Below are positions 17,038 to 56,300 of a DNA stretch of 64,000 bases, one piece after another. Source of the DNA: Camelus dromedarius (lineage: Eukaryota); NCBI RefSeq assembly GCF_036321535.1, contig NC_087436.1:57042001-57106000 (forward strand). Direction: 5' to 3'. The stretch's first letter is position 1, and the number at the start of each line of letters is the position of its first letter. The notes beneath the pieces are model-generated. The model had not been told where the DNA came from and did not search any database. It worked only from the letters and a program-made list of their open reading frames with translations. The position numbers were made by a program, and so were the translations under genes.

Positions 17038-17099
17038 TCACAGGCCCATTGACGTTTTTAGTAATGTGGCTATATCTGCTGGCATACTCCCTTCGTCAC
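17038..17099 (-). CDS. SMARCAD1: SMARCAD1 last coding exon (exon 24) with stop
   Basis: ctgcag|GT...; (G)DEGSMPADIATLLKTSMGL*, the known C-terminus. Confidence 0.97.
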
Positions 17100-18105
17100 C
17101 TGCAGGTCAGAAAGTGGTGTCAAAAGTTTGATAGAAATATCTTATGAAATAATTTTTTTCTCTCAAATTTTCCCTACTTTTGTGAATTCTTAATCAGCTT
17201 TCAAGGCCCAGTGTGATTCAGTGTCACTTCCTGCTAAAACCCTTCCCAAATCCCTATCTGTATTAGGGTTACGTCCCTCGAGCTCATCTTTACACTGCCA
17301 GCACAGCACCTACAGGTTATGCCGCTGATCTGATACACAGATACACAGAGATACGCAGATCTAGACCGTCTGGATCATATCCTAGTCATACAGCACACGT
17401 TTACTCCTCAGGTTCGCTAAATAAAAACATTCATGTAACAAACTGAATAGTGACAATGAAGACAACAAAACTCCTTCGTTCCAACCAAACAGAAATCATT
17501 TCACCTACACCCTTATTTTCAGTCCAAAGATACAATCATTGACTCTTTTTTTCTTTCCCAGTTAAATGAGACCCCAGAATCTAGACACTTATCCAGGTGT
17601 CTCTCTCCCTCTCTCTTTCGTTCACACACACAGACCTCAGTTATAAACTAAACTTGTGAGGCTACTTTCATCTACTCTTTTCCTTTCAGTAAAAAGCATG
17701 CATAGGAACACATACTGCAAAAATTCTCAGGGAATTCACTGACATGCTTGCCTCCAAGTTTGTCCACAGACTTGAAAACAGATTCAATTTTAAATTGAAA
17801 TCCCAATTTAATATTAAATAAAAAAGCAAGATGAAGAAGACTGCATGTTAACTTGTGTAAAACAGAGAAAGAATACATATACTTACTTTCATCTGCATAA
17901 AATAACTGGTCACACACTGGAAAAAACCCTAATGTGTCACTTTTATGGGGAAGCCAGGTAATAGCGTGGGAAGGGGGATTTTGTTTGCCTTTTTGTATCT
18001 TAGGAATTTTGAACTATATGAACATATTATCTTTTCAAAAATATTTAAATAAAAAAATTTAACTTTTAATACTTTAAAAATTACTCTCTTCAAAAAGATG
18101 GAGTT

Positions 18106-18253
18106 GGGGAAGGGTACAGCTCAGTGGCAGAGCACGAGCGTAGCATGCAAGAGGTCCTGGGTTCAATCCCCAGTACTTCCATTAAAAAAAAAAAAAAAGA
18201 TAAACCTAATTACCCCCCACCAAAAGCTTAAAAAAAAGAAAAAAAAAAGGAAA
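18106..18253 (+). mobile_element. Vic-1-like tRNA-derived SINE
   Basis: A box acagctcagtgg, B box ggttcaatcc, aaacctaattacccc, A tail; TSD aaaaa(g/c)atggagt. Confidence 0.9.
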
Positions 18254-18723
18254 AAAAACATGGAGTGGAAAGAGTTCCTTCACTTGATGGTTCTTTCTTG
18301 TTAGTACCCAACTGCTTCAATCTGAAATTACGAAATTTTTGAATAAATGCATTTTATTACACTCTGGCACAATTAATTGCTAGTCGAAATGAAATTAATG
18401 TAAATGTTAAAGAGTTCTTAGTAAGTTAATATTATGCCATGTATTTTAAATCTTTGGATTCATAAATACTACTTATATAGCAAGTACATCATAAAATTGT
18501 GGATAAAGTTACAGATCCAATTTTAATTTCTGGGGTGTTTTGATGTCAGAGATAAGGAATGGAAGAGACAGACATTTTCAAAATCAAACTATTTATGTCA
18601 GTTGTGGCAAAATGAACTTAGTTATTGTAGCACATTTGAAATAAGTATGCCTATCCTCTTCTGTGCTATTAAATTGCAGGCCAGTTGAGGACTAAGACCA
18701 CCCTTGTTATTATCCCTTTGCTA

Positions 18724-18909
<186 letters not shown>

Positions 18910-19840
18910 TCATTGGTTACTTAATAAAAAATTATTTGATATATATAAACTACATTCATCACCAATAAGAATAATTTGAAAATTGTATAACAACTATATC
19001 TATAAATTTAAATTCTCTTTTCATTCAAACTACTTGAGATTGACATTTTCTGAGTACATCACTTTAAAATATCCTTTCCTATTGATGCAAGAGATGAGAA
19101 AAAGATATTTAGTCTTTAAAAATTACTGGTAAAATTGTATTACAACAAACAGTTTGGGGTTCAGGTAGGTATTCCATTTTAAAAAGGAATATGCTTTGCT
19201 TATCAAGTTCCATGAAATAATTTAGTACAAAAAGAAGGTGTAGAAAAGTATACAGATTACATGGAAGGTTTTAGTTCCACAATAAGTACTGATAAACATT
19301 TGGTTTATAAATAACATATCAATGTCTTTTGGAAATACAGTAAAATACTCTACGAAGAAAACACTGGTTGTCTGCTTACATGTGAAAATAAGAGCTGAAT
19401 TATAGGTATTGTCACCTTTTAATGTCTTGTGACCAATGTCTAATTTAACCTTCACCTAAACTATCTATAACTCACATAATCCTAAAGGTAACAAGGTAAC
19501 AATAGTATGCATTATTACCAAGTCTATTTGGGTCTTACATGGTCTAACAAGCAAGTTTTTTCAATTTCTAATCCTTTTCAAAGGGGCTGCACCATTGGTA
19601 ATATTTCATTTTCACCAGCTGCAGAACTATTTGGACTGGGAGGTGGGAGGTTATTTTGTTTTAATTACTAGAATTTGAACAGGTTACTTAGTGGGGTTCA
19701 TATTCAACACCATTGGTATAAAATACAGTAGAAGCCATGTTTTGCTGAAAATATAAAACCTAAGGGCAGGATTATCTGACAGACCATATTCCAATATTCT
19801 ATGCAAATTAAACTGGCATTCGATTAAAAATGTATGTCAA

Positions 19841-20005
19841 GGGAGAGTACAGCTCAGCAGTAGAGTGCATGCTTAGCATGCACAAGGTTCTGGGTTCAAT
19901 GCCTTAGTACCTCCACTAAAAAATAAAATAAAATAAAAAATTGATTAAAAAAATACATAAAGAAACCTAATTACCCCCCAACCCCAAAACAAAAACAATA
20001 AAAAA
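19841..20005 (+). mobile_element. Vic-1-like SINE
   Basis: Same A box, B box and cctaattacccc architecture; ends about 23 nt from the exon 22 donor. Confidence 0.88.
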
Positions 20006-20027
20006 GAATTTCAACTGCAAATACTTA

Positions 20028-20231
<204 letters not shown>

Positions 20232-21039
20232 TTAAATCTCACAAAAAGGTATATAATTAAAACTGAAAACAATCACATCACATGGAAAATAAACTTGAAG
20301 ATGTAAATACATGCTCATGGCATTATTTATTTTTCCTGCAGCTGTTTTATTGAAAAGACCTACCCAATTCACCAACTTTTTTCTATACCATTTATCTCCC
20401 TATTGATTCTTACTTTTAACTATTCAGATTTGATTAATCCCTAAAGAACTATTTTGTACTTTGTTTAGTGACTTCTGGCTTTTCTAAAGTCTGCATATGG
20501 CTTTTGAATCTTAACCTTTTCAGAGTCTATCAGCTACAACTCATAGACAATGTACCTGATGAACTAAGAATCTCAGTGTCAAACTATATTGGTGTATAAT
20601 CTTTAGCATGACTTCTATTCTTATTTTAATGCAGGAAAAAAATTTTACTCTGGCTGATAAAAAAAAAACCAAAGATATAATGCAGTTTAAACATACTAAA
20701 AAAAGCATTCCTCCCCCACCCCCCAATCTTTTTAACCTTTGGGGATTAAAAAAAAAACAAAAAAACCTAAACTTATTCAATTACCCTTAAAATATAAAAA
20801 GCCCAAGATTTTAAAATAATCTTGGTTGAAAGATAAAATGCTTTAGACTTAGAATGATTTTTAAAGGGGAAAACATTGATATACATATAATTTTAGCAGC
20901 TGTTTCAAAATATATTTGTATGTAATTCAGATGAAAATTAAAGTTTTCTCATCTTAAGGTAATGAATAACTTAAAATAACCAAACATAAGACTCAAAGCA
21001 ATACAATTCTATCAAATACTCTAGACATTTAAAACTCTA

Positions 21040-21243
<204 letters not shown>

Positions 21244-21740
21244 TTAGATACATTAAAAAGTTATCTAATGAAAAATTGCTTCTTTAATTTAAAAAAATCA
21301 AGTAATCATAGCTAAAATAAATTTCTTATTTTAGATTATATATAAGTAAATTATCTTCTAAACTTCAGACCTAAAATTTAATTTTCAGTTTTGATTTTTT
21401 AGAATATTTGGGAATAGCTACAAACAGTACTATTTGGATTGTGATCTTACAAATTTAAGCTAATTCACATATAAGTTGTAGTATTAGTTTACTTTACAAA
21501 GTATCTTCAAATACTAATTTTGAAGTAATACAGATTGTCACCTATGAAATATTGACAAGATTATTTTTTAAAAACATCAATATAGATGTATTCTACTAAA
21601 TTCTATTAAATGGAGGAAGAGTATTCAGGAAACATGCCCAAATATATCCAAAAAATGCTCAAAATGCTAGTTTCTATAAGACTGTAGAACAGACATAGAC
21701 TAAAGCTTTAAGAAAATCAAATCATGCCAGAACTGTTTTA

Positions 21741-22061
<321 letters not shown>

Positions 22062-22622
22062 TCACATCTGATAAACTATCTCAATCATAAAATATTTTAG
22101 TGCAACAGATACAGCAAAGGAAATTAATATTTATTTTTTAGGTACAATAAAGGGGAGGGGAGTTCTTATTGTCTTAGAAATAATATACTGAAAAATTTAC
22201 AGATGAAATAATGTCTAACACTTGATCCAAAATTGTTCTGGGGAGAGTTCTAGATGAAACAAGAGCAGTAACATTGCAGATGATAACTGTAGAAAAGGGG
22301 TGAAGGTTATGCGGGCAGAAAATTTCATTATACAATTCTCTCTACTTATATATGTCTGAAAATCTCTGTAAGTTTTAAAAAACATTTACAAAGCAAATGG
22401 TTGCTTTAAACACAAAGATCTATAAGGAGAAATACAAGCAGGTGCTATGGGAGAATGAGACAAAAATAGAGGGTAACGGCTAAGACTACTGACAAAATTC
22501 AATAAAGAAGAAACAAAATTAAAAAAAAAATGGAGAAAAATGACTCACTACCCAGGACATATATTCTGAAGGATCTTTTGGGTGAAAAATAAATAAATGA
22601 AGTGCTCTATAGAAGTCTAGAT

Positions 22623-22816
22623 CAGAAGCTGGCAAACTTTTTCTGTGAAGGGCCATTTAGCAAATATTTTTAGGCTCTGTAAGCAAAAATGATCTGTTTT
22701 ACAGCTACACAACTCTGCCTTTATATTGAGAAAGCAGTCAATACAGAAACAAAAGGGCGTGGCCATGTTAGAAAAAAACTTTACTTGGAAAAACAGCCAC
22801 TGTTCTATTGCTCCTG
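22623..22816. mobile_element. hAT-Charlie MITE (MER58A-like)
   Basis: cagaagctggcaaactttttctgtgaagggcc...actctgcc...aaagcagtca. Confidence 0.75.
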
Positions 22817-22977
22817 AGGTAGACTGTCACTCCTCATTGGCTCTTATGTCTCCAAAATTATTTTGAGCTTTGTCTTAAAAATGTTTTCCTTAATATGTGG
22901 TTAAAGGGTTAATATGCTCATTAGGTTCAACAGTCTGATTTTTAGACTGACAATGAACCTCATGTTTAATACTGTTA

Positions 22978-23229
<252 letters not shown>

Positions 23230-23351
23230 TTAATAATTATTTCTTCAAATTCCAACTAACTTAAAAAAATGAGCAAATCTCACTATCATATAAGTAAACA
23301 AAATGCAGCCCCAGTACAGGATTATTTTTTCACATAAAATCGTGAAAATCA

Positions 23352-23671
<320 letters not shown>

Positions 23672-24785
23672 CTAAGTAAAATAAGAACATGTCCTTTTAA
23701 ATTATTCATTTAAATGATCACAATAACATTACACAACCTGAAAATCTCCCTCACTACCATCTGTAGTTATTTCCCACAGAAACTCAATTTCATTCGAGAT
23801 GAAACTTCATATTTGAATTCTGGGCTATAATCTACTTCTTAAAGCTTCATATTTATTTTGAGGCTTTGTGACATGTAATTGTGAACTCTGCATAGGTAAT
23901 GAAATTAAACTGAACTAGGATGGTGTTCAGAAGTAATAAACTGATGAGTCGTTACTGATTACATAGATAACCTTCATGAAAAAAAGGTGTGTGTTTAAGC
24001 AGGTAGGGGTGAAGGGGAAGAGAGAGGAAAGGAGGAAGAGAGAGACAGACAGTAAAAAACTTGTGTTTATGTGTTGAAAATGGCCCGAAAAGAAAGCTAG
24101 TGCAGGTGATGCAAATCATATCATCTCAAGAAATGTGACAGTTCCTGTTATTTTGGAGAAGTGAAATTTTATTCTGTGATGTAAAGGAGTCCGCCATACG
24201 CTATGATCTGCTAGACCATCAAGCGGGAGGGAATGTGTTAGTGAGAAATTAGAGAGGCAGTTAGTTTGCAGTGGAAGATTATCACATAGAATTCTTGTAA
24301 AACACATGTGATTTGAGAGAGAGAGTAAGAATCTAATAAACAATGCTATAAGGAAAATTTGAGAGTTCTTGAAGACTACTTTTTCTAAGCAATAGGGAGA
24401 ATATTAATCAGATTTTCTTCTAAAGAGTATTTCTTTACCGTGACTTTCAAAAATTGTTACTTTTGTATTTACGGAGTTTTATTTCAAAATATATTTCCTA
24501 ATATAGGAATCTTCTAGATATTCTACTTTTGCCCAGTTCTATAGTTTACCTATAAAGAAATGCTGATTTTTAATGAAGAAGACATAGTAATCAAACTTTC
24601 CCCACATATTATATATCTGAGCCATCCAATAATTTAAAATTGTCATTCTTCAAAAAATTAGAATAATAAAAACCAAAACTTTTAGACACTGATTATAGAA
24701 GTCACCTATTTAGTTCCCACTGTATTTCAGATGACTTCCCAACTCATCCAAGTATAGGGATATCAACTACTTAAAAGTTATTTCA

Positions 24786-25049
<264 letters not shown>

Positions 25050-25314
25050 TTAGTGGTTTTTTTTTTAAGAGCCACATCCTTCTTGTCTATACCACTCAGT
25101 GAGGAGAAAAAGAAATTAAAACTATTATTAGTAATGTAACATTCTGTTGAAAGGTAAGTAATTTATAAAAATTATCATCCATGTACTTTAAGGTACAATG
25201 TGTAAAACTAATACTCTCATTTTATAAGTAGATAACTGATGTTCTCATATTACTTTTATGAAGTAATGAAAGAAGATAGATTGTATCTGTATTCATAAAC
25301 TTTATCTTATAGAA

Positions 25315-25484
25315 CAAAGGTCGGCAAGTTGAAGCTCATGAACTGAGAACGGCTTTTAAATTTTTAAAGGTTGTTAAAAAAAGAAAAGAGAGAAAGAAAA
25401 GAAGAAGTGACAATAGCTGAATGGCCACAAAGCATGAACTGTTTACTTATCTGGTCCTTTACAGAAAAAGTTTGCTGTTCCCTG
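25315..25484. mobile_element. hAT-Charlie MITE (MER58-family)
   Basis: caaaggtcggcaag...tctggtcctttacagaaaaagtttgctgttccctg. Confidence 0.75.
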
Positions 25485-25531
25485 ATATAAAGTAGTATAT
25501 ACACTGAAATACATAATTCAAAATTTCATCA

Positions 25532-25750
<219 letters not shown>

Positions 25751-26414
25751 TCAGGTGAGATGTAATATTTTCTAAAATTATTTTTACTGATAAACTTCTA
25801 ATAGCCACTACCTAAAAGATACCACTAGACACAGTTGGTATTCAAAGAAATAATGATGTACTTATAGCCAGTAATTATTGATATACATGTAATTAGGTTA
25901 CAAAAGTGGCAATTTATAGTTAAAAGACAATTTATATGTTATAATGTAATTAGACAACTTCTACACATCTAGGAAGAGGCCAGTTTGGGTATAATTTATA
26001 TGTAATCTGCAAGTGTTATACACTTTGCCAATTTATGAACTGTTGTTATTTTAAGAAGCACGGAAAAAAAGGACACGAAGCTAAGATATTTCTGTTAAGA
26101 CTATAATATCACTGCATTAAACTAGTAGAGTGAATCCAAGAAATAATAGTTAAGAGCAGCCGGCAGTAGAAGACTATCTATATATGAAAATGGAGTCCAC
26201 TTTATTAAGAAAAGATGAATTTTGGATGAAATCTTTTAATCATGATCTCTTACAGAACTAGCAAAAAAACTGCTATCATAGTAATTATACACCAAACTGA
26301 AAAATCCTGAATCTTCAACATGTCATTCCATTACTTTTGTTGCATAGTTCTTAGCATATACTTTTCTTCATTTTACTACTAATATTTCTAAACATAATTT
26401 TTTTTAATACTTAC

Positions 26415-26490
26415 GTGGTCACAATTACATTATATTCTTCATATTTACTATGAATGTTATATCTAATCTGTTTACGTTCTTCTTGAGAAC
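26415..26490 (-). CDS. SMARCAD1: SMARCAD1 exon 14
   Basis: 76 nt; (G)SQEERKQIRYNIHSKYEEYNVIVT. Confidence 0.96.
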
Positions 26491-26550
26491 CTAGAATTTA
26501 AAAATGATACACACGTATTGATTGTATTTATTGTACTTTACTGTATGTTA

Positions 26551-26676
<126 letters not shown>

Positions 26677-27333
26677 TTACTCGCATCTGCTACAACAGGG
26701 TATATGAGTGTAATGAAATGAACACTAAAGTTTGACAAGTTCTATCCAGAAATTTTCTTTTATTAAATAATACAAAATGTTTTTTAAAAATCACAGACCC
26801 TTCACAATTTTATTCCTGATGATTAAAATGACTTTGAGATTTTGAGGCATCAATGAAGAGCAGAGGGCCAAATATTCTATTTATAGTTGATTATTAATTT
26901 CTAACTTAAAAAGTGATTTCTTTTTTGGTTATGTTCATACGTACAAACATTCTTTTACTCCGATCAAGCAAGAATGAAACAGTAATCTAAGTGGATATGA
27001 ACTGCATACTTTCTCAATAAATGTTTAATTATAAATTTAAAAGCATTTAATTTATCTGAAATTAAATTAAATAATTTTAAAATAATTTTAAAATATTATA
27101 AAACAAATGATCTTATCAAAGGGTATTTGATCTATAATAACTTATAAGCTGTATAAATTGACTTATACTGGAGTTATTTTCTTTAAAAAGACTATCCAGT
27201 ACAATCACACACACACATATACATACACAAAGGGGGGAGAAGTGTAAGGAGACCACAGAAATTGATATTCACCTCCCCAAACTAAGAAACTGCACATACA
27301 CACAGTTTTTCTTCTCCCAATATAAAACACTTA

Positions 27334-27474
<141 letters not shown>

Positions 27475-27814
27475 TTAAAAGTTTAAAATATATTAAATTT
27501 TGAAACAAATAAAAAACCCAAATAAATACTGGAAAAATTAAAGAAAAAAGAGTATTTCTGGTTTTATTATGATTCCTCATAATACAACTGAGAATTTCTA
27601 CCATGTTCTTAGTTCTCAGTAACACATAAAACATATCATAATCTCCAGATGAGACTACAATTTAGTTTAATGAGTAGGATGTATCTCAACTGCTAGTTAA
27701 TATGTGATACACATTAATATGGATGACCTCTGCTTGCATAAAAGGATATAACTGTTAATATAAACCAAAGTTTAATACGTACTGGATGGATAGAGAATGA
27801 TGTTCCAATGACTA

Positions 27815-28395
27815 CTTGGAGTTGTATATATACCTATTACCTAGCAATTTCACTCCTAAGAATATATTCAAGAGATGAGAGTGTATGTACATAAAAAGAC
27901 TTGTGTAAGAATGCTGATGTACTTTTATTATAACAGTCACACACTGGAAATAACCTAAATTGCCATCAACTGGAGAATAAACAAATTGCAGCATATTTAT
28001 ACTATGAATTACCACATGCCTCCCTTCCCCTACCCCACAAAAAGAAAAAGGAAAAAAAAAGCACCAAACTGCTGATAGATGTAAGAACACAGATGAATCA
28101 TAGTAACTTTATGATGCACCAAAATGAACCAGGATCAACCAGTATATATTGTATGGATCTATTTATATAAAATTCAAAATCAGAAAAAATTATTCTGTGG
28201 CGATAGGCATCAGAATAGTAGTGGTGGTAATGACTGAAAAGGAACATGACGGAACTTTCTGGGATGATGGAAATGCTGATCTCAGAGGCATGTACATACG
28301 GGTGTACATATACATATAAAGTCATTAAGCTGAATATTTCTGTATTTTATTTCAAGTAAATTATACATCATTAAAGTATCATATTAAAAAAAAAA
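27815..28395 (+). mobile_element. Old L1 (L1MB/ME-like) 3' fragment
   Basis: cctagcaatttcactcctaag...aaagacttgt...aaattatacatcattaaag. Confidence 0.8.
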
Positions 28396-28441
28396 TGCTA
28401 TCGAGGAGGTGAGCTCCTCAGGAGAGCTAAACATTACCAAC

Positions 28442-28680
28442 TGTTAGGAACTGAATTGCCCCCTACCCCAAATTTACACCAGGGATGTGTGCACAGAGAA
28501 AAAGCCACATGAGGACACAGCAAGGTGGCCACCCGCAAACCAAAGGGAGCGGCCTCAGGAGAAACCAAACCTGCCATCATCTTGATTTTAGCCCTCCAGC
28601 CTCCAGACTGTAAAGATTTCTGTTGTTTAGGCCACCCTGTCTCTCGTATTTTGTTATGGCAGCCCTGGCAGACACGAACT
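28442..28680 (+). mobile_element. MLT1A-like MaLR LTR, internally deleted
   Basis: gccacatgaggacacagcaaggtggcc...ggcctcaggagaaaccaaacctgcc...ttgttatggcagccct. Confidence 0.8.
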
Positions 28681-29778
28681 TATTACAAATATTGTCCTTT
28701 ACAGGTTACAAAAACAGTTTCACATAATATACCTTATTTGATACCAAATATAATCTTATGGTACAGAAGTTACCTATGTTTTATTAATATTGACTCTGAG
28801 AGGTTAGGTCATTTGGTAAGGATTAGACAGCCCATGAAAGACAGAGCTGGGACCCAGAGCCCAAATCTACTTCCCAAGTCCAGTTTCCACAACTATACTA
28901 TTCTATATGTTATATATAATATCTAACTATTTTGAAATCCTGCATGTATTATTCACTTTTCTATCAGAAAAACAGCATCTTTGTTTTAATGGAAGTATGA
29001 GGTCTGTGTGGGAACTGCCTTAAAATACTAAAGATTACTTTACTAGAAGCTAACTAGAGAACAAGGGTTATTATTTTTGCTATTTTTATTTTGCAAATCT
29101 AATACAAAATGTAATACATATATATTTAATAAACATTTTCTCCACAGAACATAACTCATTTTTAATAAACACTTTTTAAAAAGTATAGCTAGAAGAAGGA
29201 GGGTAAAGTTTAGATTAAAGGTCAAGTTTCTACATGACAATACCTAGATTATTAGCTATGATGAACTTCCTAAGTTTAGCTTCAAGTAAAATATAATTTG
29301 GAAAAGAAAAGAAACTCAAGAGACATCTAATAAAAGGAAAATGGCTGAAATGATGTTGATAATAAATGTGTAGATTTATTTATTGACAAGAACATGTATC
29401 TATGATAAAGTTTAACAGCAGCTATAGAAAAGCGCATATAGTAAAATCTCACTTAGTGTAACATATGTGTACGTATGTACATGCACGTATGTATGCATAC
29501 ACACACACCCCAGCAGAAGAAAATACTCTACAAAGATATACACCAAAATAGTACTTATTTTAAGGTGGCAGGATTAAGCTGATTTTGTTTTTTTCTTTCT
29601 ATTTTTGTGTAATATTTAATTTTAAAAACACATATGTTTATTACTTTGATAATGAGAAAGACAATAAATCTATTTTTACTTTTGAGGGGCGAGCAAGGAG
29701 GTAAGAACTAAGATAAGCAATAGAAAACCAGAAGGGGTGAGAAAGGTTACAACATACTTTGGTAAGAGCAGTAAACTA

Positions 29779-29979
<201 letters not shown>

Positions 29980-35428: not shown

Positions 35429-35629
<201 letters not shown>

Positions 35630-37395: not shown

Positions 37396-37471
37396 AGGGA
37401 GGGTATAGCTCAGTCGTAAAGTGCACGCCTAGCATACCTGAGGTCCTGGGTTCAATCCCCAGTGCCTCCAT

Positions 37472-39975: not shown

Positions 39976-40118
39976 GGGAGGGGAGGTATAGCTCAGTGGT
40001 AGAGCTCATGCTTAGCACGCACAAGGTCCTGGGTTCAACCCCCAGTATCTCCACTAAAAATAATAAATAAAATCCCCTAATTACCACCCCCCACAATAAT
40101 TAAAAAAAAAAAAAAAAG
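39976..40118 (+). mobile_element. Vic-1-like SINE
   Basis: A and B boxes; perfect 13-bp TSD atgtcctttgaac (39962-39974 and 40119-40131). Confidence 0.93.
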
Positions 40119-41206: not shown

Positions 41207-44200
41207 AAAATATGATCTTGTTTACATAATATGACAAATACAAACATATGCATAAGCAGATGGTTGCTCAATAAAGCCTTAAGTGGCAGGTATCTAGTAG
41301 AATTTTAGCTAAACTTGACTTTCTTCTTTGTTCTTGCATGCACTGTTTCAATTGTAGACAAAGAAAACAAGTCATTCTTCAAAAAAATGATAAAGCTATT
41401 TTTTCAGAGGGAAGAAAGAAAAAAAAGTAATTGGTACTTACCGGATAATTACATGAAAAAAAAAAAAACCCATCAACATGGCCCTGATTACTTTCTCTTT
41501 GATTAAAAAATCAAGTATTACTTTAAAGCCTTAATCTTTTAAAAATAGTCATTAACTGAAGTACCTATCTCTTGCCACAGTGTGTCACTCTTATAGTAAG
41601 AATAATTTTGAATTTCTATAGGAACAGAGAAATTGTTCAAAAGCAGATTTAATTCCCCACCTGAAAAGTAATATTCTTAAGCACAGAGTCCTAATCTTAT
41701 TCACTGCTATGAAAACCAGGCAGCAGCCTATAAAGTACTCAAAATGTATTTATAATTTTAAGTAAATATTTATCAAAGTTATAAAAATGAAAACAAAGCC
41801 TGAATACAGTAATCCTATACCCAAATTTACTGAAGCCACTCTATCACGAAGGAAGGAGTAGGCATTACAATACTTCAAGTGACAAATTTAGACAGACATT
41901 TCACAACCACCAGGAAAACACAGCAAAAAGAAAACCTATGGTCTAAGTTACTAGTAGATGGGAGCAGCACATGTTTCCATATGAGCTAAACCTGGGCTGC
42001 TTGGTTAACAATAAAAAAAAAACAAACTGCATTTATGCTGATCTAAATGTTAAGGAAGTAAATGCACGTAAGAAAAGTTTTTAGGCTGAGCCATTTCTGA
42101 ATAAGCTATTCATAAATCTTTAATTTGGTCAGTATATACTACTATTCTGATTAAAGTATAAAGATTAATATAATACGATTATCATAGACATAATAGCATC
42201 CCCACCTTACTCTGCACAAAGCTAGGTAAAAATTCAGTAAGCGGTTGGTGAACTGATGCCATTAAATGTATAAAATCTGGTGATAAAAATCCCAATTTTA
42301 CCATATTAACAGTACATGTCTTTAAACTAATGATATTTTGACTTGCTGTATTTCCAAAGTCTACATGAATTAATGCTGTGGTTTCTTATGATGAGCATGC
42401 ACTTTTTGCTCTTAAAGCAGAAAAATAAGTGAATGGAAAAAACTATGAAAACCTGACAAACATTTAGATTTTAAAAAAGGGTATAAAGCTGCAAACATAA
42501 ATATCCCTATATAATGCACTTATTTAGTTAAATAACCAAATTTTCCTCATGTAAAATAAGGGTGACTAGAATATCTCAGAGCATTTTAATTTTTTAAAAA
42601 GTATAATCCTGACAGTCATAATAATGATGTTCAATTTTTCAACTTCTGTTTTAAAAGGCAGTTACCATAATTTTCACAATCAAATGAATTTTTTAATAAA
42701 ATAAGACAATGAAATACTGATTACATTCAATTTACCAATGTTATGGTGACTTCTATTTCAGCAAAAATCATAATTAAAATATATGCAGATACTTGATTTG
42801 TTGGCTCAGTATGCACTATAATGAAATATTTATGAATTTTAAAGTTCTGCCAAATCTCCCAATCCTTAAGACTGAAAAAAAAAAAAAGCTTCCACAATAA
42901 TGTTAAGTGTTTACTAGACATTTGCACACTGTTCTTAATATATAATGCCTTATAATTTCCAGGAAAGTATGACTGAGGGACATAATTAAAACTTCGACTA
43001 ATTCTCATAGGAATTTTTCTAAAAACAGTAGTTTTGAAAACAAAAGTAAATGTTTTTTTTTTTTTGGATGGGGGAGTGATTCACAGGTACATTACCAAGC
43101 CTCTGATTAATAGGGAAGGAGCAAATTGACTTCAGTAAATATACATATTAAAAAAATAGGGAAGGAGCAAATTTATAGTTTTTTTTTTTTAACCAAAATG
43201 TACATAATATGACCTTTCCTTTGATGACTTTAAGATATTAAATTGCTCTTTAAATCAGTTATATTCAAAATTCTAAAGTAAATGAAAGCAGAAGCTTAAA
43301 GTTCTAAGCAACTTAAAACTTAAAAGCTTATAAATACCGACTTGCTAATTTTAACTGTTCATTTCCAAAAACTTACATTTACTAACATTTTCAGGATAGC
43401 AAAGCCTTATATTCGCTGAACTCAAGTATCAAGTTTACTTCTTAATTATCACATAAAATAATCAACATTTAGATGAATGGCTAGCAAAAATAGTCTCCAT
43501 ATTTAACTTCTAGAAAGGGGGCAAGATGCTATAGGAGGTTTAAGTAGGTAATGCATATCTACAAGTTCATGTCAAGACTAATTTAAACTACGCCAATTAA
43601 TTAGTAGGGGAAATATGCTTTCCACATGTTAAGTTGCTGAATATTTTTAAAAGCATCTGGCATTCACAACTCTGGTATAATTTATTTTTACTATGAGATA
43701 TGTGGGCAAGTAGTTACAGTGATTAAACACACTGGTGCAGATAATTGCATTCCTTATTAAACAAATTAAAATCCCAACAAGCCTGAGCAACCCGACTCTG
43801 CAATAACATAGGAGACCATTAAAGATTAAAAGAAAGAAGAAAAGGAAGAAAAGAAGAACAAGAAAGCCCTTCAGCAAATACTTTAGCAAATAAATCACTC
43901 AGGCAAAGCCGAACAAGTTTTGAAAGAGCCTGCTTTGACAGATGTTCTCTGGAAAAGCAAAGGCTTTAGGCAAAACGAATGGCTTATTTATTTTTTTAAA
44001 GGCATGAAATACCAGTAATGGTGTTTCTGTATTTTTCAAGTATTTTAATTTTTAAAAAAATGCTATTTACAACCATTGTTCAGGGACCTTCCTACCCTGA
44101 CACTTTAAGATACTCATCAAAGGGACTTAGGCTCATACAAATTTGTCACAAGTTTAAAATTAATCACAAAAGCAACTTTACTCCTTAAGTTCGGGAATAA

Positions 44201-44491
44201 AACCTCCTAAAAATTTATAAAACATCGAGTCACTTCATATTCTAAAGCTGTAAAAAAAAAAAAAAGATCCATATTGCTTTCACAGCAGGGCCTGCTTAGA
44301 ATTCATGCTGTAAAAACTCACATTCTCACAAAAGTTGAAGCAAAATTTAAAAGACAGAGTCCTTGTATTTTTCTGTATGAATAAGATTTGCTGACTGTTG
44401 ACATTTATAAAACTCAAAATACAGCTTCTTTAGATAAAATTTGTTTCTAGAAAACAAAATTCCAGAAAATGATCATGCAAAGTGTACTTAC

Positions 44492-44869
44492 CAGTGCTTA
44501 TGCCTTCCCTTCACCTAACGCTTGAATTCTAGGCTTCCACACACTTTTCTATCTTTCCAATTAAAAACGCTGCAGCCTGCTACACTCCATAAAATGGCCG
44601 CGTTGTTTAATCAAGAAAAACATGTTAGAGATTGAGCTGTCACTTATAAAAGAAAAATAAAATGAACAATTGCTTCTTTTGTGGTGAAGCATGAAACACT
44701 CAGGCTGGCATTTTGAATCATGGAGCTCCCCTGGACGTTGCTATTGCTCTTCAAGTAGTTGTAGTAAAATTTCTGCCACATTCTCACTTTTTGCATGGTG
44801 TCTCAGCAGTAACAGATCAGAACAGGCTAGCAAACAACTCCTTCCTAAACGTAAGCTCTAATTTCTTCT
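44492..44869 (-). other. SMARCAD1: Candidate non-coding alternative first exon of the short (skin-type) SMARCAD1 isoform; 5' end inferred
   Basis: Donor GCACTG|gtaagt whose G is intron 9 position +665. The 5' end is extrapolated from the recalled human exon length (c.378+1 variants) and is not visible in the sequence. Confidence 0.7.
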
Positions 44870-44898
44870 TCTTCTTCAGTGAAATGAACCAAGTTTCT

Positions 44899-44936
44899 AT
44901 GCAAAAGAATGAGTGACAGTATGCCCAGCCAATCAG
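44899..44936. promoter_or_regulatory. Candidate internal promoter: CCAAT box plus octamer-like motif
   Basis: AGCCAATCAG at 44927-44936 and ATGCAAAA at 44899-44906, just upstream of the inferred alternative first exon. Confidence 0.45.
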
Positions 44937-45008
44937 CTTGGGTTTTTTCAGGAAAATCACCCCTTAATTCATTCAAAATTAGGTCATATGACACTATTTG
45001 AAATACTA

Positions 45009-45572
<564 letters not shown>

Positions 45573-53359: not shown

Positions 53360-56300
53360 TAAATAAAATAGAGATGAAAATAATAGGGAAAAATCAATAA
53401 AATCAAGAGCTGGTTTTTTGAAAGGATAAACAAAATTGACAAGCCTCTGGCCAGGCTCACCAAGAAGAAGAGAGAGAGGACCCAAATAGGCAAAATAAGA
53501 AATGAAAGGAGAGAAATAACAACTGATACCACAGATATAAAAAAAAAACTGTAAGAGAATACTATGAAAAATTATATACCAACAAATCAAACAACCTAGA
53601 AGAAATGGACAAGTTTCTAGAAACACAGCCTACCAACACCCAATCAAGAAGCAACAGATAAGGGGGAGGGTATAACTCGATAGTAGAATGTGTTTTTAGC
53701 ATGCACAAGGTCCTGGGTTAAACCCCCAGGTCCTCCAATAAAAATAAATAAATCAATAAACCTAATGACCACTGTCCAAAAAAAAAAAAAAAACCAGAAA
53801 TAGATAATTTGAATAAACCAATCACTAGAAGTGAAATAGAATCTGTAATTAAAACAAAACAAAACAATACTCACTGCAAAGAAAAGTCCAGGACAGGATG
53901 GCTTCCCTGGGGAATTCTACCAAACATACATAAAAGAACTTATACTGATCCTTCTCAAACTCTTCCAAAAGATTGAAGAGAAAGGAACACTCCCAAACTT
54001 ATATGAAGCCACCATCACCATGATACCAAAAGCAAATACACTACAAAAAAAGAAAATTACAGGCCAGTATCTTTGATGAATATAGAAGCAAAAATTCTCA
54101 ACAAAATATTAGCAAGCGGAATCCAACAACACATTAAAGGGATGATACAGCATGATCAAACTGGATTTATCCCAGGGTCACAAGGATGGTTCAACATAAA
54201 CAAATCAGTGTGTTATACCACATCAACCAAAGAAAGGACAAAAACCACATGATCATTTCAATAGATACAGAAAAAGCATTTGATAAAATTCTGATCCATT
54301 CATGATAAAAACTCTTATCAAAGTGGGTATAGAGGGAACATATCACAACATAATAAAAGCTATTTATGACAACCCACATCCAACATAATACTCAATGGTA
54401 AAAAGTTGAAAGTCTTCCTGCAAAAATCTGGAACAAGGATGTCCACTCTCACCACTTCTATTCAACCTAGTATTTCAAGTCCAAGCCACAGCAATCAGAC
54501 AAGAAAAAGAAATAAAAGGGATCCAAATTGGAAGGGAAGAGGTAAAACATCACTATACACAGATGACATGATGCTACATATAGAAAACTCTAAGGACTCC
54601 ACACAGAAACTAGACCTGATAAACAAATTTAGCAAGGAATCAGGATACAAGATTAACATACAGAAATGTTGCACTTCTTTACACTAACAATGAGCTATCA
54701 GAAAGAAAAAGTCAAAAACGATCTCTTTTAAAAGTGCATCAAAAAAAAAAAATCTAAGAATAAACCTGAAAGACTTATATGCTGAAAATTATAAAACACT
54801 GGTAAAGGAAACTGATGATGATTCCAAGAAAGAGAAAGATATCCTATGCTCTTGGATGGGAAGAATTAATATTGTTAAAATGGCCACATTACCCAAGCAA
54901 TCTACAGATTTAATATGATCCTGATCAAATTATCCAGGACATTTTTCACAGAACTGGAACAAATAATCCTAAAATTTATATGGAACCACAAGAGATTTGA
55001 ATTGTCAAAGCAATCCTGAAGAAAAAGAACAAAGATGGCAGTATTACTGTCCGATGTCAGACAATTATACAGAGCTACAGTAATCAAAACAGCACAGTAC
55101 TGGCACAAAAAAAGATATACGGATCAATGGAACAGAACAGAGAGCCTAGAAATAAACCCATACACCTACAATCAATTAATCTTTGATAGAGGAGGCAAGA
55201 ATATACAATGGAAAAAAGACAGTCTCTTCAATAAGTGGTCCTGGGAAAACTGGACAGCTACATGTAAAAGAATGAAATTAGAACATTCTCTAACACCATA
55301 TACAAAAATAAACTTAAAATGGATTGAAGACCTAAATGTAAGACACAACACTATAAAACTCCTAGAAAGGAACATAGGCAAAACATTCTCTGACATAAAT
55401 CGTAGCAATGTTTTCTTAGGTCAGTCTACCAGGCAAAAGAAATAAAAACAAAAATAAACAAATGGACCTAATCAAACTTATAAACCTTTATTCAGCAAAG
55501 GAAGCCATAAACAAAATGAAAAGACAACCTATGGAATGGGAGAAAATATTCACAAATGATGCTACTGACAAGGGATTAATTTCCAAAACATACAAACAGC
55601 TCAGATACCTCATTATCAAAAACAAACAAACAAAAATCCAATCAAAAAATGGGCAGAAGACCTAAATAAACATTACTCCAAAGAGGACATGCAGATGGCC
55701 AACAGGTACAAGAAAAGGTGATCAAAATTGCTAGTCATCAGAGGAATGCAAATCAAAACTACAATGAGTTATCACCTCACACAGGTCAGAAAGATCATCA
55801 TCAAAGTCCACAAATAATACTTGCTTGAGAAGGTATAGAGAAAAGAGAACCCTTCTACACTGTTGGTGGGAATGTAAATTGGTGCAGTCACTATGGAGAA
55901 CAGTCTGTAGGTTACTTAAGAAACTAAAAATAGAGTTACCTTTATGATCCAGCAATCCCACTTCTGGGCATGTATCTGGAGAAACCTCTAATTCAAAAAT
56001 ATACACGTACCCTAATGTTCCCAGCAGCACTATGTACAACAGATAAGACATGGAAGCAACCTAAGTGTCCACTGACAGATGAATAAAGAAGATGTGATAT
56101 ATATATAAATGTATGTATGTATATGTATATATACACACACAATGGACTATTACTCAGCCATAAAGAGTGAAATACTGCCATTTGCAGCAACGTGAATGGA
56201 CCAAGAGATTTTCCTACTAAGTGAAGTAAGTCAGACAGAGAAAGACAAATATCATATGGTATCACTTACATGCAATAGAAAAAAAATGATACAAATGAAC

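What the first reader, a model, noticed from the sequence alone, without database searches (positions are those of the whole stretch)
44485..44869. Preserved 'fingerprint' (skin-isoform) first exon of SMARCAD1 in a probable camelid
Seen: a near-consensus donor (GGCATAAGCACTG|gtaagtac, - strand) in non-repeat sequence, with its G at intron 9 position +665. Splicing it to exon 10 gives, from the first exon-10 ATG (35620, MSKTN...), 1791 nt or 596 aa, retaining the ATPase but lacking both CUE domains. Recalled knowledge: human has a skin-enriched short isoform from a non-coding exon in this intron, and its donor mutations (c.378+1 etc.) cause adermatoglyphia, Basan and Huriez syndromes. Inference: retention in an ungulate implies a role in pad or glabrous skin or sweat glands that is more general than fingerprints.
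Basis: partly seen in the sequence, partly recalled or inferred. Interest (0 to 1): 0.7.

Follow-up and report, generated by a model that had tools for sequence, protein, structure and literature searches.

The report
Fingerprint-gene exon conserved to birds
An intron of this mammal's SMARCAD1 gene holds a non-coding exon and upstream control stretch that also align to a bird; they likely match the human first exon whose mutation erases fingerprints, so the short protein form likely predates fingerprints and sweat glands, and databases already list it.

Summary
Observation confirmed: donor CTG|GTAAGT at intron-9 position +665; exons 10-24 give 1,791 nt and 596 aa. Neither fact alone beats chance: intron 9 has two G|GTAAGT, and the start Met is amniote-wide. 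Comparison makes it real. A RefSeq model from another mammal begins with this exon's translated 3' end joined to exon 10 (best of 552 GT sites). A bird locus aligns over the upstream promoter-like block (84%), the exon (59-82%) and the donor. The window's 596-aa protein is already in RefSeq, letter for letter, and 596-aa models exist for sperm whale and mouse. So this is very likely the orthologue of human SMARCAD1-s exon 1, far older than ungulates. A pad or sweat-gland role is too narrow; a general stratified-epithelium or ectodermal isoform fits better. The uORFs look regulatory, not coding. Not shown: junction reads, start site, tissue, direct human alignment. The scan noted a positional counterpart in elephant shark before (e1-7791214, untested here). 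Interest 0.38.

The parts
45156..45548 (-). SMARCAD1 exon 9 (last exon private to the long isoform; encodes FNKKRKKN, the human NLS1 motif); 5' boundary approximate
   Evidence: tblastn to P0001, 95% over 131 aa; donor at 45155; NLS1 motif as given in bioRxiv 10.64898/2026.08.17.745107
44870..45095 (-). Promoter-like conserved block: GGGTGG box (45058), CCAAT (45012), inverted CCAAT (44933), kB-like GGGTGATTTTC (44962), no TATA; promoter role inferred; motif labels recalled
   Evidence: 190 of 226 columns identical (84%) to bird locus L001, against 42 +/- 4% for 60 unrelated intron pairs and 80% for the 3' part of coding exon 9; all four motifs also in L001; human predicted promoter maps by offset to 45049-44813
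44492..44869 (-). Alternative non-coding first exon (5' end taken from the human length of 378 nt, not observed)
   Evidence: 82% (5' part), 68% (uORF part), 59% (3' part) identical to L001, where the equivalent is 383 nt; 3' end matches the N-terminal extension of RefSeq model P0189; translated pieces in 13 unnamed Logan/ENA gene calls of one cluster plus P0208-P0211 and P0213
44644..44796 (-). Longest upstream ORF, 50 codons, three in-frame ATGs (44796, 44781, 44721); likely regulatory, no coding signature
   Evidence: Same three ATGs and a 54-codon ORF in L001; mismatches by codon position 14/8/11 against 4/8/31 in exon 9; ends and frame vary among other records
44486..44494 (-). Splice donor CTG|GTAAGT, intron-9 position +665
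   Evidence: bird equivalent GTG|GTGAGT at +644; best of 552 GT sites for the P0189 extension, score 40 against next 5
43847..43980 (-). Second conserved non-coding block about 510-645 nt below the donor; enhancer or splicing element inferred
   Evidence: 103 of 137 identical (75%) to L001:3873-4004, E 1e-18
35430..35629 (-). Exon 10, shared acceptor; short-isoform ATG at 35620
17038..29953 (-). Exons 11-24, completing the 596-aa ATPase/helicase protein; includes the NLS2 motif across exons 17-18

Best explanation
This conserved non-coding block in SMARCAD1 intron 9 is likely an internal promoter plus untranslated first exon, orthologous to human SMARCAD1-s exon 1, whose donor at 44491 would splice to exon 10 to give the 596-aa ATPase-only protein. 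Shown here: the donor, the 596-aa frame, conservation of promoter-like block, exon, uATGs and donor in a bird, and a RefSeq model in another mammal that joins this exon end to exon 10. Inferred from the human papers: transcription starts in the CCAAT-containing, TATA-less block mainly in proliferating keratinocytes of stratified epithelia (skin, nail, tongue, oesophagus) and some neural tissue; upstream ATGs damp translation from the exon-10 ATG; the product keeps the motor and the weak NLS2 but lacks the CUE region and NLS1, so it is dosage-limited and partly cytoplasmic. Inferred from the bird match: the module is at least amniote-old and serves a general epithelial or ectodermal job, of which fingerprints are one dosage-sensitive human read-out.
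For: Bird locus L001 (exon 9 protein 87-92% identical to bird records, 100% to P0099) aligns continuously from exon 9 through the block: 84%, 82%, 68%, 59%, then 47% below the donor, against 42 +/- 4% background; its other intron sequence gave only one more hit at E below 1e-3 outside exons. Donor kept at +644. P0189 (XP_060043713.1, 617 aa) starts with 18 residues, 10 identical to the translated exon end, in frame and ending exactly at this donor: best of 552 GT sites, 40 against 5. P0181 (four RefSeq accessions) is identical to the window's 596 aa. 24 distinct stored records of 596-598 aa start at the exon-10 Met, among them sperm whale P0190, mouse P0191 and two with reptile-level divergence, P0168 and P0206. 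Human landmarks agree: TG/GT, +3A, +5G, ATG 9 nt into exon 2, 596 aa, intron 9, promoter offset.
Against: No junction read, start site or tissue was seen in this species or in the bird. No human DNA was aligned; of the six donor letters matched only -2 T is non-consensus. The P0189 match is significant only when anchored at a donor: unanchored over the whole window it scores 40, with 300 shuffles giving mean 32 and maximum 45. The 596-aa records do not show which 5' exon they use. The exon's 3' third is the least conserved part (59%), the bird has another good donor at +767, and the small matrix scores the bird donor only 4.0 (the matrix had no GTGAG example). PMC8659716 states there is no mouse counterpart in UCSC mm10. 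ATG number is at chance level (7 against 6.2 expected) and a 50-codon uORF arises in about 11% of resamples. The exon does not hide the main AUG in a fold prediction.
Confidence: 0.78

Rival explanations
1. Hybrid or poison cassette exon: exon 9 splices to an acceptor at 44896, the 405-nt exon puts a stop after 6 codons, and nonsense-mediated decay tunes the long isoform; this could coexist with first-exon use.
For: A passable acceptor at 44896 (score 6.5, rank 17 of 566 AG sites) has an AG at the same place in the bird (4.9), and the frame hits a stop at once. High flanking conservation is typical of such exons (general knowledge).
Against: The score is at the bottom of the gene's real acceptors (6.5-15.0) and weaker in the bird, which has an extra AG upstream. 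Two CCAAT boxes are kept at the same spacing. Human CAGE data and a promoter-removing deletion point to a start site.
Confidence: 0.08
2. The ancient part is an enhancer or other regulatory block; use as a spliced first exon is limited to mammals, and the bird donor is incidental.
For: Identity falls from 84% to 59% towards the donor. No bird 596-aa model appeared among the best 120 of 3,686 hits listed.
Against: The purine run before the donor and the GT are aligned in the bird, and 4 of the window's 7 uATGs are kept. Two RefSeq models with reptile-level divergence start at the same Met. Only cluster representatives are listed, so bird short forms may be hidden.
Confidence: 0.08
3. One reading: the exon is kept in ungulates for a job in foot pad, glabrous skin or sweat glands.
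For: Human loss affects ridged skin and sweating; camelids have padded feet (general knowledge).
Against: Conserved in a bird and annotated as a 596-aa form in sperm whale; human expression includes tongue, oesophagus and cerebrum. A pad role may exist but cannot be why it is kept.
Confidence: 0.04
4. The 'non-coding' exon is kept because it encodes a conserved microprotein from the 50-codon uORF.
For: ORF open in window and bird from the same ATGs, 42% identical, two 3-nt indels; open for 58-92 codons in 12 of 13 records of the P0216 cluster.
Against: No third-position bias (14/8/11; pS 0.32, pN 0.26, against 0.60 and 0.08 in exon 9). Frames shift between records and the window has two stops where others read on. 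No Pfam family. Gene callers only report open frames, so those records are a biased sample.
Confidence: 0.02

Closest known systems
Human SMARCAD1-s (skin-specific short isoform, NM_001254949; exon 1 chr4:94,253,294-94,253,671), mutated in adermatoglyphia, Basan and Huriez syndromes (PMC8659716; bioRxiv 10.64898/2026.08.17.745107)
   Same: Exon in intron 9, donor TG|GTA-G, ATG 9 nt into the next exon, 596 aa, ATPase and NLS2 kept, CUE region and NLS1 lost, several uORFs (longest tested in human 55 aa; 50 here, 54 in the bird).
   Different: Intron to exon 10 is 8,862 nt here against 11,035 in human. Start site, splicing and tissue are measured in human and only inferred here. The papers treat it as human and one says mouse lacks it.
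RefSeq predicted 596-aa SMARCAD1 isoforms of other mammals (P0181: XP_006192339.1, XP_010951852.1, XP_010978887.1, XP_072796547.1; mouse XP_006505576.1; sperm whale XP_007100311.1) and the 617-aa XP_060043713.1
   Same: P0181 is identical to the window's product; P0189 carries this exon's 3' end as translated N-terminus.
   Different: Automatic models with no published biology found; their first exons could not be viewed except through P0189.
Other intronic alternative first exons giving N-terminally truncated epithelial isoforms, such as deltaNp63 (recalled)
   Same: Internal promoter, truncated product, stratified-epithelium expression, deep vertebrate conservation.
   Different: Here the private exon is non-coding and carries uORFs, and the product is a chromatin-remodelling ATPase.

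Membership tests
Orthologue of human SMARCAD1-s exon 1 | Lies in intron 9 of SMARCAD1 | tested here: met
   human position from PMC8659716
Orthologue of human SMARCAD1-s exon 1 | Donor letters -2 T, -1 G, +1 G, +2 T, +3 A, +5 G | tested here: met
   6 of 6; only -2 T is informative
Orthologue of human SMARCAD1-s exon 1 | ATG 9 nt into the next exon, 596-aa product without CUE | tested here: met
   true of any amniote gene, so weak
Orthologue of human SMARCAD1-s exon 1 | Nucleotide alignment to human chr4:94,253,114-94,253,676 | not testable with these tools
   No human DNA is served; papers read give coordinates but not the exon sequence; preprint supplements closed
Orthologue of human SMARCAD1-s exon 1 | Promoter directly upstream | tested here: inconclusive
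   Conserved block with two CCAAT boxes at the human offset; activity not measured
Orthologue of human SMARCAD1-s exon 1 | Spliced to exon 10 in RNA | tested here: inconclusive
   No read-level result obtained; indirect support from RefSeq model P0189 in another mammal
Orthologue of human SMARCAD1-s exon 1 | Skin- or keratinocyte-enriched expression | not testable with these tools
Orthologue of human SMARCAD1-s exon 1 | uORFs with conserved starts | tested here: met
   4 of 7 ATGs kept in the bird; repression itself untested
Conserved-peptide uORF / microprotein | Codon-level purifying selection and stable frame | tested here: not met
   (two DNA sequences only)
Poison cassette exon | Conserved upstream acceptor and early stop | tested here: inconclusive
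Structured RNA element | Rfam match or fold more stable than shuffles | tested here: not met
   No Rfam hit on the exon; z +2.88, 100 of 100 shuffles fold as well or better

The most novel reading that the evidence does not exclude
The 'fingerprint' isoform of SMARCAD1 is an ancient, amniote-wide and perhaps jawed-vertebrate-wide module: an internal CCAAT promoter more conserved than the neighbouring coding exon, a uORF-laden leader and a downstream conserved element, making a CUE-less remodeller in epithelia long before fingerprints, hair or sweat glands. Mouse and chick would then have it, against the published statement that mouse lacks it, and deleting the donor in mouse or chick would give the first animal model of adermatoglyphia, Basan and Huriez syndromes.
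Probability: 0.55. Interest if true: 0.6.

Novelty: new member of a known kind. Interest (0 to 1): 0.38.

Why it matters
As 'a camelid keeps the exon' it matters little: the protein is already a database model. The useful part is its age. The 2026 preprint says the role of the short isoform in skin is unknown, and PMC8659716 says mouse has no counterpart, which would discourage animal work. A bird match over promoter-like block, exon and donor, plus a mouse 596-aa RefSeq model, suggests the isoform can be studied in mouse and chick. The alignment also points to which elements to test in undiagnosed patients and reporters: two CCAAT boxes, four uATGs and a second conserved block below the donor.

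Tried and rejected
Read-level test of the junction: 24 runs were listed, 20 holding the stretch in whole or part, but neither lay returned data, so splicing, start site and strand stay open; those runs are not used as evidence. No genome is held, so no genome-wide uniqueness test. Searches for the human long-isoform numbering of the donor found no paper; two primary papers are not held. The 596-aa length as proof of an isoform: rejected. The donor motif as proof: rejected. Origin by duplication of exon 9, suggested by similar ends: rejected, local score 23 against shuffle mean 24. Conserved microprotein: rejected. Structured RNA: rejected. Hiding of the main AUG by the exon, as modelled in the preprint for human: not reproduced, unpaired probability 0.58 with the exon, 0.64 without, 0.49 with exon 9, 0.54 +/- 0.11 for 30 shuffles. 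P0140 (646 aa) looked like an extended form but starts inside exon 9. Of 8 hits, P0212, P0214 and P0215 were long repetitive proteins with no match to the region and were dropped.

Full report
Observation. The window holds SMARCAD1 on the minus strand. Exon 9 ends at 45156, intron 9 is 9,526 nt, and the candidate donor CTG|GTAAGT has its GT at 44491, intron position +665. Exons 10-24 give 1,791 nt from the ATG at 35620, 596 aa, 593 of 596 identical to the C-terminus of P0001. The identical record P0181 has SNF2 and helicase-C domains and no CUE. Two of them prove little. Intron 9 holds 6 GTAAGT and 2 G|GTAAGT, and the site ranks second of 559 GT sites by a matrix from the gene's own 15 donors. 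The exon-10 Met is kept in 169 of 172 longer stored amniote proteins in which the motif was found, so 596 aa follows from any upstream exon. The 5' end 44869 is the human 378 nt counted back.

What the human papers give. PMC8659716 (parts 1-3 of 4 of the text read) places the alternative exon 1 in intron 9, gives 596 aa from residue 431, lists +1G, +2T, +3A and +5G changes, and states there is no counterpart in mouse (UCSC mm10). The preprint bioRxiv 10.64898/2026.08.17.745107 (outline, sections 3, 6, 7, 8, 18, 28, first part of 13, and passages) gives the exon as chr4:94,253,294-94,253,671, the site as TG/GT, the ATG 9 nt into exon 2, a predicted promoter at 94,253,114-94,253,350, an 11,035-nt intron, translational damping by exon 1, more than 20 candidate uORFs with some starts conserved by phyloP, and expression in skin, nail, tongue, oesophagus and cerebrum. 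Its supplements were closed; its primer table and promoter figure could bear on orthology and on whether conservation depth is already shown. PMC9113868 (retracted; passages), PMC9403131 (passages), PMC9585957 (passages) and PMC7334198 (one reference line) added nothing on conservation. Nousbeck 2011 was not read. The window matches 6 of 6 donor letters, only one of them non-consensus, and the human promoter maps by offset to 45049-44813.

The protein is already annotated. A search with the C-terminal 596 residues found two clusters of 86 and 45 members. Of each, 40 were read and 15 listed; 14 and 8 of those listed are 596 aa. P0181, with four RefSeq accessions, differs from the window's product at 0 positions; all other listed records differ at 2 or more. 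That these accessions are camelids is recalled, not shown. Named by the tool are sperm whale (P0190) and mouse (P0191, XP_006505576.1). P0168 and P0206 start at the same Met with reptile-level divergence (83% for P0168). These records do not show their first exon.

One record does. P0189 (XP_060043713.1, 617 aa, 20 differences from the window in the shared part) starts with 18 extra residues, MWNLRIEAVGEEGQAWAL. Translating the 63 nt above each of 552 GT sites in intron 9 and scoring with the end anchored, 44491 scores 40 and the next best 5, with 10 identities. Without the anchor the match is still the best in six frames but not beyond shuffles (40 against mean 32, maximum 45 of 300). So in another mammal a gene model joins this exon end, with its last stop lost, to exon 10 at exactly this donor. 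That such models rest on RNA-seq introns is general knowledge.

Conservation to birds. A scan with exon 9 returned one genomic locus, L001, whose exon 9 is 87-92% identical to bird records and 100% to P0099. It aligns from exon 9 on through the intron (E 2e-161). By segment: 3' part of exon 9 80%; first 60 nt of intron 43%; 45095-44870 84%; 44869-44797 82%; uORF 68%; 3' part of exon 59%; below the donor 47%; a second block at 43980-43847 75%; background 42 +/- 4%. The bird has GTG|GTGAGT at +644, aligned to the window donor, and a 383-nt exon equivalent. Two CCAAT boxes 78-79 nt apart, a GGGTGG box and a kB-like word are the same in both; neither has a TATA box (motif labels recalled). Unnamed gene calls that are translations of this region, 13 in one mammal-like cluster plus P0209 and P0213, and bird-like P0208, P0210, P0211, show that it is widespread.

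uORFs. The window exon has 7 ATGs, 4 kept in the bird; three open a 50-codon ORF that is 54 codons in the bird. There is no coding signature (mismatches 14/8/11 by codon position against 4/8/31 in exon 9), ATG number is at chance, and an ORF this long arises in about 11% of resamples. Other records read on through the window's two stops or change frame. This fits regulatory uORFs with fixed starts and loose ends. The exon folds worse than shuffles, and it does not hide the main AUG in prediction, which is against the structure part of the preprint's model for this species.

Mechanism. Shown: donor, frame, conservation, a cross-species model of the splice. Inferred: an internal TATA-less promoter fires in basal keratinocytes and related ectodermal cells, the leader exon splices to exon 10, uORFs damp translation, and a CUE-less, NLS1-less ATPase is made in a narrow dose range. 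The main rivals are a poison cassette using the weak acceptor at 44896 (rank 17 of 566, stop after 6 codons) and an old enhancer used as an exon only in mammals. No read-level evidence was obtained.

Novelty. The human element is known and the window's protein is already a database model, so this is a new member of a known kind. Six literature searches (listings only, up to 40 rows each) showed no paper on the short isoform outside humans, but the library lacks most subscription papers and the preprint's phyloP track already shows conserved starts. The worthwhile claim is the age of the module and the chance of mouse and chick models, against one published statement. Interest 0.38; 0.6 if amniote-wide use as a first exon is shown.

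Noticed in passing
window 43847-43980 (-); L001:3873-4004: Second mammal-bird conserved non-coding block (75%, E 1e-18) about 0.5 kb below the donor; by offset it would lie inside the 1.36 kb of intron kept in the human minigenes.
   Followed up: partly
P0191 (XP_006505576.1): RefSeq has a predicted 596-aa mouse Smarcad1 starting at the exon-10 Met, whereas PMC8659716 says mouse has no counterpart; its first exon could not be viewed.
   Followed up: partly
window 39982-40053 and 37399-37470 (+), also near 18106-18245, 19841-19934, 53663-53805: tRNA-like Rfam hits are one family of five copies in the window, one followed by (TAAA)17: tRNA-derived SINEs, possibly the camelid Vic-1 family (name recalled).
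   Followed up: partly
window 45156-45164 and 44492-44500: Exon 9 and the alternative exon end in similar words (AAGCTCTG|GTAAG and AAGCACTG|GTAAG); no wider similarity.
   Followed up: yes
window 45017 (-): ATG|GTAAGC inside the promoter-like block is the top-scoring donor-like site in intron 9 but is absent from the bird.
   Followed up: partly
P0204, P0205: Two 624-aa RefSeq/GenBank models start with four foreign residues joined to the last part of exon 9, hinting at another short form through an internal exon-9 acceptor.
   Followed up: no
window exon 23, short-isoform residue 550: The window and P0181 have Leu where the other listed mammalian records shown have Gln: a lineage-specific change in the helicase C-terminal region.
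   Followed up: no
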